DNA from: Minisyncoccota bacterium
GTDB lineage: Bacteria > Patescibacteriota > Microgenomatia > UBA1400 > UBA12028
Direction: 5' to 3'
Length of the DNA: 64,000 nucleotides
Assembly (NCBI GenBank): GCA_016211945.1
Contig: JACRHV010000003.1
Coordinates: 5,631 to 69,630 of the forward strand
Of this stretch, positions 15,677-19,469 are shown piece by piece. The first letter of the stretch is position 1. The number at the start of each line of letters is the position of its first letter. The notes under the pieces were generated by a model. That model did not search any database, had not been told where the DNA came from, and saw only the letters and a program-made list of their open reading frames with translations. The position numbers were made by a program, and so were the translations under genes.

Positions 15677-16529
15677 TTGGCAGCTTCTCATTACCATTAA
15701 CGTTGTTTTTTACTCGATTTCTACCCTCCTTCAGCGCGTTGTTTTGAAGGAAAATCAAAGTAGACCAATTGCGTTTGCAATATTTTTTCAATGCATGGTC
15801 GGACTATTCATCGGGGTTGCTGGATTATTTACAGGTCAAATGCAGATCCCATCCTCAATAATGCAAATGCTTCCCAACCTCCTCCTTATGACCATCATGT
15901 ATGCCGTTTTTAATATTTTGACCTTCTCCGCGCTCAAATATACCGAGGCCTCGCTCTTTACTATCATTCTCGCCTCACGCGCGTTCTTCACAATTGCTGC
16001 ATCAACATTTTTTCTCAAAGAATCGTTAACTATGTTCCAAATTGTAGGTACATGCTTTATTATTTTTGGGATTATTGTTGCGAATCTCCATGGCGCAAAA
16101 CAGATAAAAATTGGTAAGGGAGAAATATTCGCTGGTCTTGCGGCGCTATTTCTTGGGTTAGCAAACACGAATGACAGAATAATCCTCCAATCAATTCCGC
16201 TCTATCCGTTCCTCACTATGGCCTTTCTCCTCCCCGCCATCATAACGGCCGCGGTCTTTCCGCGTGAAGTTCCACATATCATAATGTTTTTTAATAAAAC
16301 GATCATCATAAAAACAATGAGTGTTGCTCTTTTCTATGGTCTTGCTGCAACCACGTTTTTTGCAGGCCTTCAAGCAACGACAAACTCATCACAGTTTGCG
16401 ACCATTAGCCTTACAAGCACAATTCTCATCGTGATCCTCTCGATGGTATTGTTGAAAGAACGTGATAACCTCTGGAAAAAAATTGCGGGAACTGGATTGA
16501 GTTTTCTCGGGCTACTTTTGATGCGGTAG
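15669..16529 (+). CDS. DMT-superfamily (EamA-like) transporter
   Basis: about 10 predicted TM helices; duplicated EamA-like halves. Confidence 0.55.
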   Translation: MLSWQLLITINVVFYSISTLLQRVVLKENQSRPIAFAIFFQCMVGLFIGVAGLFTGQMQIPSSIMQMLPNLLLMTIMYAVFNILTFSALKYTEASLFTIILASRAFFTIAASTFFLKESLTMFQIVGTCFIIFGIIVANLHGAKQIKIGKGEIFAGLAALFLGLANTNDRIILQSIPLYPFLTMAFLLPAIITAAVFPREVPHIIMFFNKTIIIKTMSVALFYGLAATTFFAGLQATTNSSQFATISLTSTILIVILSMVLLKERDNLWKKIAGTGLSFLGLLLMR

Positions 16530-16964
16530 CGTCAAAACTTCTTTGTACTTCGCCATAAAATACTTGAACTGCGAATGTCTCGGGTTTGGAAGCGTATCAA
16601 ACGTAAACCACTCGACTGCATCCATTTTATGTGGTTCTGCATTTTTAACTTGGACTGGGTCAACCAACACCTTGAAGTCTAACGTAATCCAGTGTGTTTT
16701 CTTGTTATCAAATTCTCGATGAACATCGCGATATCCCAAGAACTCGAATGAGAGAATTGTTGTCCCATATTCCTCTTTTACTTCTTTACGCAGGGCATCT
16801 TCTACGGTCATTCCAACGTCTAACGCGCCGCCACCAATCTCCCATCTCCCCTGTTCATCCCGACAGTTTTTTCCGCGTTTGTTCATAATAAAATTTCCGC
16901 GACCATCGTGACAATAAAAAACAATGGAAATACCGACAAAATCCTCACCCGCCTTACCTGCCAT
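16512..16964 (-). CDS. NUDIX hydrolase
   Basis: Nudix box 'GGGALDVGMTVEDALRKEVKEEYG'; start taken at internal Met 16964, because the longer ORF overlaps murD. Confidence 0.7.
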   Translation of the reverse strand: MAGKAGEDFVGISIVFYCHDGRGNFIMNKRGKNCRDEQGRWEIGGGALDVGMTVEDALRKEVKEEYGTTILSFEFLGYRDVHREFDNKKTHWITLDFKVLVDPVQVKNAEPHKMDAVEWFTFDTLPNPRHSQFKYFMAKYKEVLTLPHQK

Positions 16965-18201
16965 ATGTTCGAACTTCCTTCTCAAACTCGTCCCCTTTTT
17001 CTTCAAAATTCTTCCACAATGTGTAACTTGGGCTTGCGCATGAAAGTAAACAAATTTTTCCTTTTTCCGTGTGTTTGTATGCAAATGCAACGGCGTCTTT
17101 CATGCGTGTTGTTTCGAGGATGGTAAAAGTACGGTTACATTTTTTTTCTAGTATTTCTCGTATTTTTGCGCCGGTTTCTGGGAAAAATACAATGTTACGA
17201 ATAGTTGAAGCACATATCGCCTCAACCAAACTCGAAAAATTGAGTCCACGATCTGTTCCACCCAAGAAAATCGTGTCAACATCACGGAGTGTTTCTATTG
17301 CGGCAATTGTTGGCTCGGGTGCAGTTGCAATGGCATCGTCATAGAACGTCATTCCATTGTAAACTCCAATATTTTGGAGGCGGTGTGGGAGTGGAACAAA
17401 CTGCTCAATTGCCTTTTTTTGTACATCAACAGGCACATCAAACAGACGAGCAACGGTACATACCATACGAATATTCTGTTCATTATGTTTTCCTTTAAGT
17501 GCAACATTGTCTAAAGAAAACGGCAGCGTTGCGATACATGGAATACTTTTTGCTTTTGTTTGGTCGGCGAGTTTTGCAATTTCATTATGGTCGCTGTCGT
17601 ACACAAACACATCGTCTTTTTTCGCGTGGAGTGCAATCTGTGATTTTGCTCGAAGATATGCCTGCATGCTTCCGTGATAATCCAGATGTTCCGGAAAAAT
17701 GTTCAAAAATACCGAGATGTTCGGCGAGTACTGGAGATCTTCCAGCATATAGCTCGACATTTCGATAACAAAAATAGTGTTTTCTTTGGGTGGCTTGAGC
17801 AACTCCGAAAGAAGCGGGATACCGATATTCCCCGCCAACCGCACGGACAATCCCGCAGTCTTCAATACAGAGAAAAGAAGCGATGTTGTGGTACTTTTTC
17901 CTTTACTCCCGGTAATTCCAATCGTTCTGTTGTTTGGAACTAGATCGCGAACATTTGCAAAAAAAATATTTGTCGCGGTTGTGTATGGAACCTTCACCAA
18001 CCGCCTCGGCAATCCCGCAGTCTTTATGACAAGATCAGCTTCGTACTGTTTCTTCAAATAGTCTTTGTTGTCAGTTTGGTCGGCATGAAAAACCTCAACA
18101 TTTGGGACATACTTCTGCAAAAAAGATTCTGTTGCTTTTCCTTCCCTCCCATATCCTAAGAGAAGAATGCGACGATATTTTTTTAGATCGGCTATGGTCA
18201 T
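16954..18201 (-). CDS. murD: UDP-N-acetylmuramoyl-L-alanine--glutamate ligase (MurD or MurD2-type)
   Basis: colinear with E. coli MurD: 'IGITGSKGKSTTT', 'AGNIGIPLL', 'LPHRLQ', C-terminal 'LLSCASPSYTLWKNFEEKGDEF'. Confidence 0.85.
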   Translation of the reverse strand: MTIADLKKYRRILLLGYGREGKATESFLQKYVPNVEVFHADQTDNKDYLKKQYEADLVIKTAGLPRRLVKVPYTTATNIFFANVRDLVPNNRTIGITGSKGKSTTTSLLFSVLKTAGLSVRLAGNIGIPLLSELLKPPKENTIFVIEMSSYMLEDLQYSPNISVFLNIFPEHLDYHGSMQAYLRAKSQIALHAKKDDVFVYDSDHNEIAKLADQTKAKSIPCIATLPFSLDNVALKGKHNEQNIRMVCTVARLFDVPVDVQKKAIEQFVPLPHRLQNIGVYNGMTFYDDAIATAPEPTIAAIETLRDVDTIFLGGTDRGLNFSSLVEAICASTIRNIVFFPETGAKIREILEKKCNRTFTILETTRMKDAVAFAYKHTEKGKICLLSCASPSYTLWKNFEEKGDEFEKEVRTYGR

Positions 18202-19469
18202 ACTGCGTCTCCGCTTACTTGCATATACATCTGCATAACGGGATCGTCCGCATACTCACCGTGCTGTCGTGCGAGATCAAACGCGCGTTTTTCCTCCTGT
18301 GGCGTACCCACACATTCGAATGGCTTCACACTTTCTACCCCCAAGAGCTGTTTATAAAGCGGAATCAGTGTAGCATCCGCATACATGTTTTTCCCCACAA
18401 TCCCCACAACTTTTTCTTTGGGAAGATACGCCGCCAATGTGCTGAATACGAATGCGCATTTTGGACATGTGCCGCACCACAATGAACCGTTTGTATTTTT
18501 GCTGCCCGTGATCGCAAAATTCCTATTACAACTCGAAAAATAGTGAAAGTATTGTGGATACTGAACAAACCGTTTCACAATCTCAAGCTCGTCGTATGTT
18601 CGTAATAAGGAATATGCGCGAATATTCGGTGTTATCCACTGCTCAATATAGGCATCAAGCAACGACTCAAACTCTTCCGATTTACTCCACTGGTGGTTTA
18701 TCTCATCCCCCAAATACGCAGCGTTTCCATAGTTCGCACTGCGCTCGTTTGAAAGAATGACTGCGGAGTCGCCACGGACTGCTGCAACAAAAAGCGTAAT
18801 AAAGGTGTAGATCGCTGTCATAGGAACGTGGCCCGTGTATACATGTTTTTCTCTTGAGAGATCAAGCATTTTTTGATCGAGTTTTCGCCGAACAATGATT
18901 GGCGTTTTTTCGAGTAACTCTGCGATTTTTTCATGCAATGGAGTTGGGTTTAAAACAAAAATGTCGAACTGCTTGTGATCTTTTTTCAATAGTTCCGCAG
19001 ACACAATGGAGTCTTTTCCCCCACCCATCGGGAGGAGAACATTCCCTGATGTTTGTAGCGAAACAGGCCGTGGCTTTTTGTTTTCAACAGATGGAAACTG
19101 GACCAAATCGCGATAATCAATTGCGTTTGTGTAGAAAAACTCTCCTAACCCTTTGGTATATACCGTGTTCCAAAACTGCGCTTGATCTTGGGAAAGATCG
19201 TATTCTTGAATCTGTATTTTTCGAGGACAGTACATCTTCCAATAACTTATTCCGAGGATGAGATGGAGAGACTGAAGAAAAGGTTCGAGTATACTGGGGT
19301 CTACAGAGTCTAAAGAGAGAGACGGAAATGTAAGTATCTCCACATATTCCTTGAATTTCTCATCCTCCATCTGAACACCATAGTAGAAAGTACATGTCCG
19401 CGTTTCTTGATCAAATGCATACCGAGAAAACACAAAAGTTGAAGCGTGTGGAATCACCATATCCCCCAT
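18198..19469 (-). CDS. PP-loop ATP pyrophosphatase-family protein with QueC-like Zn-binding Cys cluster
   Basis: 'LLPMGGGKDSIVSAELL' (SGGxDS PP-loop), later 'WCGTCPKCAF'; 4-bp overlap with murD start. Confidence 0.6.
   Translation of the reverse strand: MGDMVIPHASTFVFSRYAFDQETRTCTFYYGVQMEDEKFKEYVEILTFPSLSLDSVDPSILEPFLQSLHLILGISYWKMYCPRKIQIQEYDLSQDQAQFWNTVYTKGLGEFFYTNAIDYRDLVQFPSVENKKPRPVSLQTSGNVLLPMGGGKDSIVSAELLKKDHKQFDIFVLNPTPLHEKIAELLEKTPIIVRRKLDQKMLDLSREKHVYTGHVPMTAIYTFITLFVAAVRGDSAVILSNERSANYGNAAYLGDEINHQWSKSEEFESLLDAYIEQWITPNIRAYSLLRTYDELEIVKRFVQYPQYFHYFSSCNRNFAITGSKNTNGSLWCGTCPKCAFVFSTLAAYLPKEKVVGIVGKNMYADATLIPLYKQLLGVESVKPFECVGTPQEEKRAFDLARQHGEYADDPVMQMYMQVSGDAV

What the first reader, a model, noticed from the sequence alone, without database searches (positions are those of the whole stretch)
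16512..19469. QueC-like PP-loop ATPase, MurD and NUDIX in one overlapping operon: candidate MurD2/MurL-type D-Glu route
Three minus-strand genes overlap by 4 and 11 bp. The first is a 423-aa protein with a mid-sequence SGGxDS PP-loop (MGGGKDS) and a later CGTCPKC zinc cluster, the layout of carboxylate-adenylating enzymes such as QueC. The second is an unambiguous MurD. The third is a NUDIX hydrolase. murD sits away from any dcw cluster. Some bacteria lacking glutamate racemase use MurD2 (which adds L-Glu) plus an ATP-dependent epimerase, MurL, acting on UDP-MurNAc-L-Ala-L-Glu. A carboxylate-adenylating PP-loop enzyme welded to murD is a plausible MurL-type partner. The MurL assignment is hypothesis only; I cannot recall MurL's fold with certainty.
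Basis: inference. Interest (0 to 1): 0.55.

Follow-up and report, generated by a model that had tools for sequence, protein, structure and literature searches.

The report
MurL–MurD2 D-glutamate operon in CPR bacterium
A tiny uncultured "Pacebacteria" bacterium carries the alternative two-enzyme route (MurD2 adds L-glutamate to the cell-wall precursor, MurL then flips it to D-glutamate using ATP). The route was first described in Xanthomonas, so this is a correct call of a known system in a lineage where the open literature does not yet report it.

Summary
Three minus-strand genes overlap by 4 bp (ATGA) and 11 bp.

- **The 423-aa protein is a MurL homologue.** It gives a full-length NCBIfam MurL match (E 1e-100). 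It carries Pfam MurL_N + MurL_epimerase_C. All family-invariant residues are present.
- **Its C-terminal domain is QueC-like at fold level only.** The AlphaFold model (pLDDT 94) has QueC as its best PDB match. It has a GGGKDS PP-loop and a QueC-style C-x17-CxxCxxC cluster. It does not match QueC sequence models.
- **The MurD carries the published MurD2 (L-Glu) specificity residues:** E171, R318, P391 and Y393.
- **The murL–murD pairing is conserved.** In 76 of 80 related Patescibacteria loci a murD follows murL directly. In the other four the contig ends. In at least 19 loci the pair sits at murD's normal place in the dcw cluster. Natural MurL–MurD fusion proteins exist in both orders.
- **The NUDIX gene is a local passenger.** No homologue is present in any of the 80 loci.

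This is a new member of a known kind. UniProt and JGI already auto-name some CPR homologues MurL, while NCBI calls this one "hypothetical".

Not tested: absence of murI genome-wide, and enzyme activity.

The parts
18198..19469 (-). [quoted passage not shown]
   Evidence: NCBIfam NF041275 MurL at E 1.2e-100, 337 bits, covering 8-409 of 447 model positions. Pfam MurL_N + MurL_epimerase_C on record. AF2 model pLDDT 94.
19065..19469 (-). MurL_N domain (about residues 1-135): three-stranded sheet plus helices, with invariant G73, S75, K78, E110
   Evidence: Domain model pLDDT 89. No PDB fold match at E<=1e-3; only weak EndoV/PIWI-like similarity, TM 0.3-0.36. Invariant columns.
18216..19052 (-). 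MurL C-terminal PP-loop (QueC-like) domain, about residues 140-418
   Evidence: Foldseek top hit is QueC 3bl5_A (E 1.8e-5, TM 0.65 on target). QatC, TtuA, ThiI, Cap9, MnmA and argininosuccinate synthase follow.
19008..19028 (-). PP-loop ATP-pyrophosphatase motif MGGGKDS (residues 148-154; G149 G150 G151 K152 S154 invariant)
   Evidence: A family profile aligns this stretch to the TtuA PP-loop 'SGGKDS' (E 0.0038) and to E. coli QueC 'SGGQDS'.
18456..18536 (-). Cysteine cluster C314-x17-C332-x2-C335-x2-C338 (SSCNRN ... WCGTCPKC), a probable QueC-type Zn site
   Evidence: All four Cys are invariant in 37 CPR and non-CPR sequences. E. coli QueC has C188-x8-C197-x2-C200-x2-C203 in the same position relative to the PP-loop. 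Metal binding is inferred.
18303..18320 (-). Invariant FECVGT motif (C386), a candidate catalytic residue
   Evidence: P383 F384 C386 G388 are invariant. KPF[ED]CVGT was one of the two peptide patterns that retrieved >=593 genomic relatives. The catalytic role is inferred.
18678..18698 (-). Invariant NHQWSKS motif (N258 H259 K263), a candidate acid/base or substrate-binding site
   Evidence: The role is inferred.
16954..18201 (-). [quoted passage not shown]
   Evidence: TIGR01087 murD 261.7 bits, above the 211.95 cutoff. Mur_ligase_M/C domains. Signature residues.
17680..17697 (-). FPEHLD: E171 at the E. coli MurD D182 / X. oryzae MurD2 E197 specificity position
   Evidence: Alignment to E. 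coli MurD. The residue's role comes from PMC8788868.
17245..17262 (-). GGTDRG: R318 at the E. coli K348 / MurD2 R358 specificity position
   Evidence: R is found in 68 of 68 MurL-adjacent CPR MurDs and 20 of 20 fusions.
17023..17040 (-). CASPSY: P391 and Y393 at E. coli A414/L416 (MurD2 P433/F435)
   Evidence: P in 67 of 68; Y/F/H in 68 of 68.
17323..17340 (-). DDAIAT: I291 replaces E. coli K319, whose K319T mutant gains L-Glu acceptance
   Evidence: No MurL-linked MurD examined has Lys here (0 of 88). The mutant result is from PMC8788868.
16512..16964 (-). NUDIX hydrolase gene (150 aa), translationally coupled to murD2 but not a conserved partner
   Evidence: PF00293 at 55.1 bits. Start overlaps the murD stop by 11 bp. 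No homologue in any of the 80 related loci. Its Nudix box is atypical (residues 44-67).

Best explanation
The two upstream genes are a murL-murD2 operon that supplies the D-glutamate residue of peptidoglycan without free D-Glu. [quoted passage not shown] MurL (18198-19469) then binds ATP at its PP-loop (GGGKDS) and adenylates the alpha-carboxylate of the terminal L-Glu. [quoted passage not shown] The step is irreversible because ATP is spent. MurE can then continue the pathway. What is shown here: homology to MurL; a QueC-type PP-loop fold with a conserved 4-Cys site; MurD2 specificity residues; near-universal murL-murD linkage; and natural fusions. What is inferred: the actual activities; which conserved residues (H214, E242, H259, K263, C314, C386) do the proton transfers; and that the Cys cluster binds Zn. 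The NUDIX gene is co-translated here but is a lineage-specific passenger with no demonstrated role in the pathway.
For: MurL identity:
- NF041275 at E 1.2e-100, full length.
- Pfam MurL_N + MurL_epimerase_C on this gene.
- All 46 columns that are invariant across CPR and non-CPR homologues are present in the window protein.

Fold:
- AF2 model pLDDT 94, pTM 0.93.
- Best PDB matches are all PP-loop adenylating enzymes, with QueC first.
- A family profile hits the TtuA PP-loop.
- The Cys layout parallels E. coli QueC.
- This fits the published ATP-to-AMP stoichiometry and the proposed adenylate intermediate of X. oryzae MurL (PMC8788868, PMC5808125).

MurD2 identity:
- E171, R318, P391, Y393 and I291 sit at E. 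coli D182, K348, A414, L416 and K319.
- In X. oryzae MurD2, E197 and R358 set L-Glu specificity, and the E197D/R358K double mutant switches it to D-Glu.

Coupling:
- The gene order murL then murD matches XOO_1319/1320.
- A 4-bp ATGA overlap joins them.
- murD lies directly downstream of murL in 76 of 80 related loci; in the other four the contig ends.
- The pair occupies the mraY-[murL]-murD-ftsW-murG slot in at least 19 loci.
- MurL-MurD and MurD-MurL fusion proteins exist.

Database naming: UniRef and JGI already name CPR homologues MurL.
Against: - The score of 337 bits is below NCBIfam's equivalog cutoff of 700. That cutoff is tuned to Xanthomonadales.
- Identity to non-CPR family members is only 31-37%.
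- No CPR MurL or MurD2 has been assayed.
- I could not obtain XOO_1319/1320 sequences for a direct pairwise or phylogenetic comparison. The MurD2 residues were therefore placed via E. coli numbering quoted in a review.
- Absence of murI/dat was checked only in the 64-kb window and the locus flanks, not in the genome.
- At least one CPR bacterium, Ca. Saccharimonas aalborgensis, is reported to have an active MurI (reference cited in PMC11974145).
- 14 of 68 MurL-adjacent CPR MurDs have D rather than E at the first specificity position, so the signature is not absolute.
Confidence: 0.85

Rival explanations
1. The PP-loop protein modifies the muropeptide carboxylate in another way, for example QueC-style adenylation followed by ammonia attack to give iso-glutamine. 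In that case the adjacent MurD would be a normal D-Glu ligase fed by a murI or dat elsewhere in the genome.
For: QueC, the closest fold, converts a carboxylate to an amide through an adenylate. The protein is only distantly related to the assayed MurLs (337 bits against a 700 cutoff). murI absence is untested genome-wide. Some CPR have MurI.
Against: The full-length match is to MurL and to nothing else. The Pfam MurL domains are present. The partner ligase has the L-Glu-type residues E/R/P/aromatic and lacks K319. Assayed orthologues from three distant lineages (Xanthomonas, Micromonospora, Salinispora) are all epimerases.
Confidence: 0.07
2. All three genes form one functional unit. The NUDIX hydrolase would be a true accessory, for example clearing a mis-made nucleotide-linked intermediate or a stalled adenylate.
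For: The 11-bp start/stop overlap implies translational coupling with murD. The same three-gene arrangement appears in an independent assembly of the same organism (L086).
Against: No NUDIX homologue or Nudix-box ORF lies downstream of murD in any of the 80 related loci. The few Nudix-box ORFs found lie upstream of murL, seven of the eight on the opposite strand. Its best family matches are generic MutT-like hits below their cutoffs.
Confidence: 0.05
3. The 423-aa protein is the organism's QueC (preQ0 synthase) or a tRNA-thiolation PP-loop enzyme. It would be linked to the nearby tgt/queA genes and would sit next to murD by chance.
For: tgt (11428-12651) and queA (12572-13750) lie 4.5 kb away. 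QueC is the best structural match, followed by TtuA, ThiI and MnmA. JGI named two homologues 'QueC' (P0006; P0388).
Against: There is no hit to QueC or thiolase sequence models even at E<=10. hhalign against E. coli QueC aligns only 33 PP-loop columns, probability 2.6%. The protein is twice QueC's length, with a MurL_N domain. Linkage to murD, including fusions, is conserved, whereas tgt/queA are not linked in other loci.
Confidence: 0.02

Closest known systems
MurL / MurD2 of Xanthomonas oryzae (XOO_1319 / XOO_1320; Feng et al. 2017, reviewed in PMC8788868 and PMC5808125)
   Same: The gene order is the same (murL upstream of murD2). MurL homology is full-length. The domain pair MurL_N + MurL_epimerase_C is the same. 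The ligase has the same specificity residues (E, R, P, aromatic). The predicted chemistry is the same: L-Glu ligation followed by ATP-to-AMP-driven L-to-D epimerisation.
   Different: The host is a Patescibacteria (Pacebacteria) MAG, outside the Gamma/Alphaproteobacteria and rare actinobacteria listed in the reviews. The sequence is divergent (337 bits against the 700-bit equivalog cutoff). Y replaces F at the fourth ligase position. A NUDIX gene is appended. In many CPR relatives the pair sits inside the dcw cluster or is fused into one polypeptide. No member of this clade has been assayed.
QueC (7-cyano-7-deazaguanine synthase; PDB 3bl5, 2pg3)
   Same: It has a PP-loop ATP-pyrophosphatase fold. 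A carboxylate-adenylating mechanism is expected. A CxxCxxC-containing four-Cys cluster sits at the same distance after the PP-loop.
   Different: No significant sequence-family match. MurL has an extra 135-residue N-terminal domain. The first Cys spacing is x17 rather than x8. The substrate is a UDP-muramyl dipeptide. The outcome is epimerisation and hydrolysis, not amide or nitrile formation.
QueC-like defence enzymes QatC (9y01) and Cap9 (9nto)
   Same: Both are among the top structural matches. They show that the QueC scaffold has been re-used for non-queuosine chemistry.
   Different: The similarity is fold-level only (TM 0.3-0.4 on the query). There is no defence-system context here.
Canonical MurD + MurI (glutamate racemase) route
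   Same: [quoted passage not shown] The ligase belongs to the same Mur-ligase family and passes the TIGR01087 cutoff.
   Different: Inversion would occur after ligation, on the nucleotide-dipeptide. It costs an extra ATP and needs no free D-Glu pool. The specificity residues differ from E. coli (D182, K348, A414, L416, K319).

Membership tests
[quoted passage not shown] | Full-length sequence homology to the MurL model | tested here: met
   NF041275 at E 1.2e-100, residues 10-416 against model positions 8-409 of 447. It is the only NCBIfam hit even at E<=10.
[quoted passage not shown] | Score above NCBIfam's equivalog cutoff (700 bits) | tested here: not met
   337 bits. The model is named for and tuned to Xanthomonadales. 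Non-CPR homologues from Sericytochromatia and Planctomycetota also fall short, at 476-515 bits.
[quoted passage not shown] | Pfam architecture MurL_N (PF26299) + MurL_epimerase_C (PF26298) | tested here: met
   Precomputed hits exist for the identical protein (P0001) and for the 423-aa gene call on contig L086. The local Pfam copy lacks these models.
[quoted passage not shown] | Encoded next to, and co-transcribed with, a MurD2-type ligase | tested here: met
   A 4-bp ATGA overlap. The pair is linked in 76 of 80 relatives. Fusions exist in both orders.
[quoted passage not shown] | ATP/Mg2+-dependent, AMP-forming, unidirectional L-to-D epimerase activity | not testable with these tools
   Supported only indirectly, by the PP-loop (AMP-forming) fold.
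[quoted passage not shown] | Host genome lacks murI and D-amino-acid aminotransferase | tested here: inconclusive
   No MurI-like sequence in the 64-kb window (tblastn E<=1) or in the 80 locus flanks. The rest of the genome could not be searched.
[quoted passage not shown] | Member of the MurD branch of the Mur ligases | tested here: met
   TIGR01087 at 261.7 bits, above the 211.95 cutoff. Mur_ligase_M/C domains. PDB MurD hits down to E 5e-48.
[quoted passage not shown] | Glu and Arg at the two specificity-switching positions (X. oryzae E197/R358 = E. coli D182/K348) | tested here: met
   E171 and R318. The residue roles are from PMC8788868.
[quoted passage not shown] | Pro and Phe at X. oryzae P433/F435 (E. 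coli A414/L416) | tested here: inconclusive
   P391 is present. The second position is Y393, which is aromatic but not Phe. The solved MurDs from S. agalactiae, T. maritima and entry 7sir all have Ala where MurD2 has Pro.
[quoted passage not shown] | Preference for L-Glu over D-Glu in vitro | not testable with these tools
   Needs an enzyme assay.
QueC (preQ0 synthase) | Match to QueC sequence family models | tested here: not met
   No QueC hit in Pfam or NCBIfam at E<=10. hhalign against E. coli QueC gives 33 columns at probability 2.6%.
QueC (preQ0 synthase) | PP-loop fold with a C-terminal four-Cys site | tested here: met
   Foldseek top hit is 3bl5_A, E 1.8e-5. The Cys layouts are compared. 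This shows that it works like QueC in the adenylation step, not that it is QueC.
NUDIX hydrolase | NUDIX fold domain | tested here: met
   PF00293 at 55.1 bits, above the 21.1 cutoff.
NUDIX hydrolase | Canonical Nudix box GX5EX7REUXEEXGU | tested here: inconclusive
   The sequence is GGGALDVGMTVEDALRKEVKEEYG. By my manual alignment the first Glu is Met and the Arg is Lys, while the EE pair is kept.

The most novel reading that the evidence does not exclude
The MurL-MurD2 route may not be 'limited to relatively few genera'. It may instead be the main way that much of the Patescibacteria (CPR), and members of other phyla such as Sericytochromatia and Planctomycetota, make the D-Glu of their cell wall. 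In these groups murL is wired into the dcw cluster and is sometimes fused to murD2 for channelling. MurL, until now described in reviews as having 'no known conserved domains', would then be a QueC-type PP-loop/Zn enzyme. That gives a concrete, testable mechanism for the only known ATP-consuming peptide epimerase.
Probability: 0.55. Interest if true: 0.55.

Novelty: new member of a known kind. Interest (0 to 1): 0.4.

Why it matters
**For this genome.** It corrects two annotations. The 'hypothetical protein' becomes MurL. The 'D-glutamate ligase' becomes a probable L-glutamate ligase, MurD2. It also explains how a reduced CPR genome can build D-Glu-containing peptidoglycan without a racemase.

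**More broadly.**
- The reviews present the pathway as confined to a few genera and therefore as a target for narrow-spectrum antibiotics. The searches here show at least about 590 species-representative genomes and about 1,600 sequence clusters (50% identity) carrying MurL, most of them CPR.
- The pathway is therefore phylogenetically broad, and metabolic reconstructions that score CPR as 'lacking D-Glu synthesis' may be wrong.
- The PP-loop/QueC-like fold, the invariant residue list and the natural fusions give experimentalists specific mutants and constructs for solving MurL's mechanism.

Tried and rejected
1. **PDB sequence search with the MurL protein.** No meaningful hit. A family profile finds only the PP-loop of TtuA.
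2. **Local Pfam.** No hit for MurL, because the MurL_N and MurL_epimerase_C models are newer than the local copy.
3. **Obtaining authentic Xanthomonas MurL/MurD2 sequences.** This failed. Two large protein searches and the representative search list only the best 120-150 hits, and these are saturated with metagenomic homologues. No direct pairwise alignment or tree with XOO_1319/1320 was made.
4. **QueC orthology.** Rejected.
5. **NUDIX as a conserved partner.** Rejected.
6. **Fold of the MurL N-domain alone.** No significant PDB match; only weak EndoV/PIWI/UvrC-like similarity. Its role stays open.
7. **Promoter/terminator scan of 15500-22500.** Promoter-like sites were fewer than in shuffled controls (6 against a mean of 12.9). 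Terminator-like sites were more frequent (14 against 6.4). Neither set of sites defines where the transcription unit starts or ends.
8. **Exact-sequence look-up of the 420-aa NCBI product.** Not on record. The MurD look-up worked instead.
9. **Literature.** No paper in the held library links MurL/MurD2 to CPR. The Penalver 2024 MurI paper is not held.
10. **Genome-wide murI/dat search.** Not possible with the remaining collection scans.

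
Full report
**Observation**

The region holds three minus-strand ORFs of 423, 415 and 150 aa.
- The junction 'gcagtATGAccata' shows the first gene's TGA overlapping the second gene's ATG by 4 bp.
- 'ATGGCAGGTAA' shows the third gene's ATG overlapping the second gene's TAA by 11 bp.
- The window comes from a Candidatus Pacebacteria (Patescibacteria/CPR) MAG. 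An identical protein is deposited as 'hypothetical protein HZA34_00180' on a 137-kb contig.
- The ligase and the NUDIX protein are deposited as MBI5150974.1 and MBI5150973.1.
- The same gene order appears in an independent assembly of a sequencing run (L086).
- tblastn with 15 E. coli dcw proteins and MurI finds only this murD in the 64-kb window. So murD is indeed detached from any dcw cluster here, and no murI lies nearby.

**What the 423-aa protein is**

[quoted passage not shown] The match has E 1.2e-100 and 337 bits and covers residues 10-416 against model positions 8-409 of 447.
- The score is below the 700-bit equivalog cutoff. That cutoff is clade-specific: clear homologues from Sericytochromatia and Planctomycetota also reach only 476-515 bits.
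- The precomputed Pfam hits for this protein are PF26299 MurL_N and PF26298 MurL_epimerase_C. The local Pfam copy predates these models, which explains the empty local scans.
- UniRef already names a Roizmanbacteria homologue 'UDP-N-acetyl-alpha-D-muramoyl-L-alanyl-L-glutamate epimerase', and JGI does the same for several homologues.

**Fold and mechanism**

- An AlphaFold2 model built on 46 homologues is very confident (pLDDT 94, pTM 0.93).
- Against the PDB its best match is B. subtilis QueC (3bl5_A, E 1.8e-5, TM 0.65 normalised on QueC). QatC, TtuA, ThiI, Cap9, another QueC, MnmA and argininosuccinate synthase follow. All are PP-loop enzymes that adenylate a substrate and release AMP and PPi.
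- A family profile aligns 'LvplGGGKDSivta' with the TtuA PP-loop (E 0.0038).
- In an alignment spanning CPR and non-CPR members the following are invariant:
  - the PP-loop G149 G150 G151 K152 S154;
  - G213 H214 P216;
  - E242 S244;
  - N258 H259 K263;
  - S313 C314;
  - W331 C332 C335 K337 C338;
  - P383 F384 C386 G388 E392.
- The Cys layout C314-x17-C332-x2-C335-x2-C338 follows the PP-loop at about the same distance as the C188-x8-C197-x2-C200-x2-C203 cluster of E. coli QueC.
- At sequence level the relation to QueC is confined to the PP-loop (hhalign: 33 columns, probability 2.6%). The protein works like QueC in the adenylation step but is not a QueC.
- The N-terminal 135 residues (MurL_N) fold confidently on their own (pLDDT 89). 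They have no significant structural relative; the best similarity is weak and EndoV/PIWI-like, with TM 0.3-0.36.
- The published reviews say MurL 'lacks known conserved domains', consumes one ATP, forms AMP, and runs only L to D. They propose an alpha-carboxyl adenylate (PMC8788868, PMC5808125). The PP-loop fold found here is exactly what that proposal needs.

**What the MurD is**

- It passes the murD equivalog cutoff (261.7 against 211.95 bits).
- In X. oryzae MurD2, E197, R358, P433 and F435 replace E. coli D182, K348, A414 and L416. The E197D/R358K double mutant switches the enzyme from L-Glu to D-Glu. E. coli K319T gains L-Glu acceptance (PMC8788868).
- E. coli crystal numbering equals the gene position minus one. 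Aligned to E. coli MurD, the window enzyme has E171, R318, P391 and Y393, with I291 in place of K319.
- Three solved MurD ligases (S. agalactiae, T. maritima and PDB entry 7sir) show D or T, K or R, Ala, and L/F/W at these places.

| Position (E. coli numbering) | 68 CPR MurDs next to a MurL | 20 MurL-MurD fusions |
|---|---|---|
| K348 | R in 68 | R in 20 |
| A414 | P in 67 | P in 17 |
| L416 | Y/F/H in 68 | Y/F in 19 |
| K319 | never Lys | never Lys |
| D182 | E in 54, D in 14 | E in 10, D in 10 |

**Linkage**

The best 80 loci are all from CPR-type MAGs.
- In 76 of the 80 loci a murD lies directly downstream of murL on the same strand. In the other four the contig ends just after murL.
- In at least 19 loci ftsW and murG follow murD, and in about 10 loci mraY precedes murL. 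In those genomes murL is therefore inserted at murD's classical dcw position, which argues that this MurD is the housekeeping one.
- An exhaustive HMM search of 1.84 billion cluster representatives gives 3,510 clusters at E<=1e-3 and 1,591 at E<=1e-30.
- About 20 of the top 150 are 795-894 aa. NCBIfam shows these to be MurL-MurD fusions, and one (P0263) is a MurD-MurL fusion. Named examples come from Kuenenbacteria and Roizmanbacteria.
- Outside CPR, homologues occur in Sericytochromatia, where a MurD-like gene is again adjacent (L084). They also occur in Desulfobacula, Pseudomonadota MAGs and Ca. Uabimicrobium, where murD is not adjacent (L085).

**The NUDIX gene**

- It is a genuine NUDIX-fold protein (PF00293, 55 bits) and is translationally coupled to murD.
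- No homologue occurs in any of the 80 loci. The eight Nudix-box ORFs found there lie upstream of murL, seven of them on the opposite strand.
- Its best named matches are generic MutT-like hits below their cutoffs.
- Its Nudix box is atypical.
- I treat it as a lineage-specific passenger.

**Context**

The minus-strand run is lgt (21012-21860), an unknown ORF, lspA, an RluA-type pseudouridine synthase (19497-20336, only 27 nt upstream of murL), then murL, murD2 and nudix. A convergent EamA transporter gene ends the run. tgt and queA lie 4.5 kb away. This could tempt a QueC reading, but that reading fails every sequence test.

**Comparison with the known, and novelty**

- This is the MurL/MurD2 pathway discovered in X. 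oryzae (Feng et al. 2017, as reviewed in PMC8788868 and PMC5808125). It has the same gene order, domains and ligase signature.
- It differs in host phylum, sequence divergence, the appended NUDIX gene, and, among relatives, integration into the dcw cluster and gene fusion.
- The reviews list only some Gamma- and Alphaproteobacteria and rare actinobacteria, and call the distribution limited.
- No paper in the held library links MurL/MurD2 to CPR. Domain and protein databases, however, already recognise CPR homologues.
- I therefore rate it a new member of a known kind. Two modest additions are the breadth of the family in CPR and the QueC-type PP-loop assignment of MurL's catalytic domain.

**Limits**

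- No authentic Xanthomonas sequences could be retrieved for direct comparison.
- murI/dat absence is untested outside the window. At least one CPR organism reportedly has an active MurI (citation in PMC11974145; the paper itself is not held).
- All activities are inferred.

Noticed in passing
P0145, P0146, P0151, P0243 (MurL-MurD) and P0263 (MurD-MurL); no window coordinates: Natural single-polypeptide fusions of MurL and MurD exist in both domain orders. They make up about 20 of the top 150 cluster representatives, with named examples from Kuenenbacteria and Roizmanbacteria. UniRef calls them 'Multifunctional fusion protein'.
   Followed up: yes
L002, L004, L005, L011, L014, L035, L043, L060, L062 and others (murL at about 6001-7250 in each): In at least 19 of the 80 CPR loci, murL is inserted between mraY and murD inside an otherwise classical dcw cluster (mraY-murL-murD-ftsW-murG-...-ftsA-ftsZ). 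In the window the pair is detached from any dcw genes.
   Followed up: partly
window 16954-18201 and 18198-19469; P0041, P0117, P0317, P0328, P0338, P0382: There is a systematic annotation problem. NCBI labels MurL homologues 'hypothetical protein' or 'endonuclease domain-containing protein'. It labels the MurD2-type partner 'D-glutamate ligase'. JGI labels two homologues 'QueC' (P0006, P0388).
   Followed up: partly
L084 9577-11211 and L085 3263-4738: A methylmalonyl-CoA-mutase-family (PF01642) gene lies within about 3 kb of murL in both a Sericytochromatia genome and Ca. Uabimicrobium (Planctomycetota). These are two unrelated phyla. Unexplained.
   Followed up: no
window 19065-19469 (MurL residues 1-135): The MurL_N domain folds confidently but has no significant structural relative in the PDB. 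Only weak Endonuclease V / PIWI / UvrC-C (RNase H-like) similarity is seen. This might explain NCBI's 'endonuclease domain' label, but that link was not traced. Its invariant residues (G73, S75, K78, E110) suggest a functional site.
   Followed up: partly
window 17323-17340 (MurD I291) and 88 MurL-linked MurDs: None of the 88 MurL-linked MurDs examined keeps the Lys equivalent to E. coli K319; they have I, L, N or A. This matches the published finding that K319T lets E. coli MurD accept L-Glu. The position may be a better MurD2 marker than E197, which is D in about a quarter of cases (24 of 88).
   Followed up: partly
window 16764-16835 (NUDIX residues 44-67): The Nudix box reads GGGALDVGMTVEDALRKEVKEEYG. 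By manual alignment the first conserved Glu is Met and the Arg is Lys, while the EE pair is kept. The substrate is unknown.
   Followed up: no
window 11428-15676: A tRNA-modification cluster: tgt (-), queA (+), a radical-SAM protein (13771-14688) and a class II aminoacyl-tRNA-synthetase-like protein (14690-15676, possibly EpmA/GenX-type). No queC/D/E/F was seen nearby, which suggests queuosine precursor salvage.
   Followed up: partly
window 20270-20996: The lspA ORF call (20270-20839, GTG start, 189 aa) overlaps both the upstream 112-aa unknown ORF (20658-20996) and the rluA-like start. The Peptidase_A8 match covers only residues 74-182, and another gene caller gives a 70-aa product (L086). 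The true lspA start is therefore uncertain.
   Followed up: no
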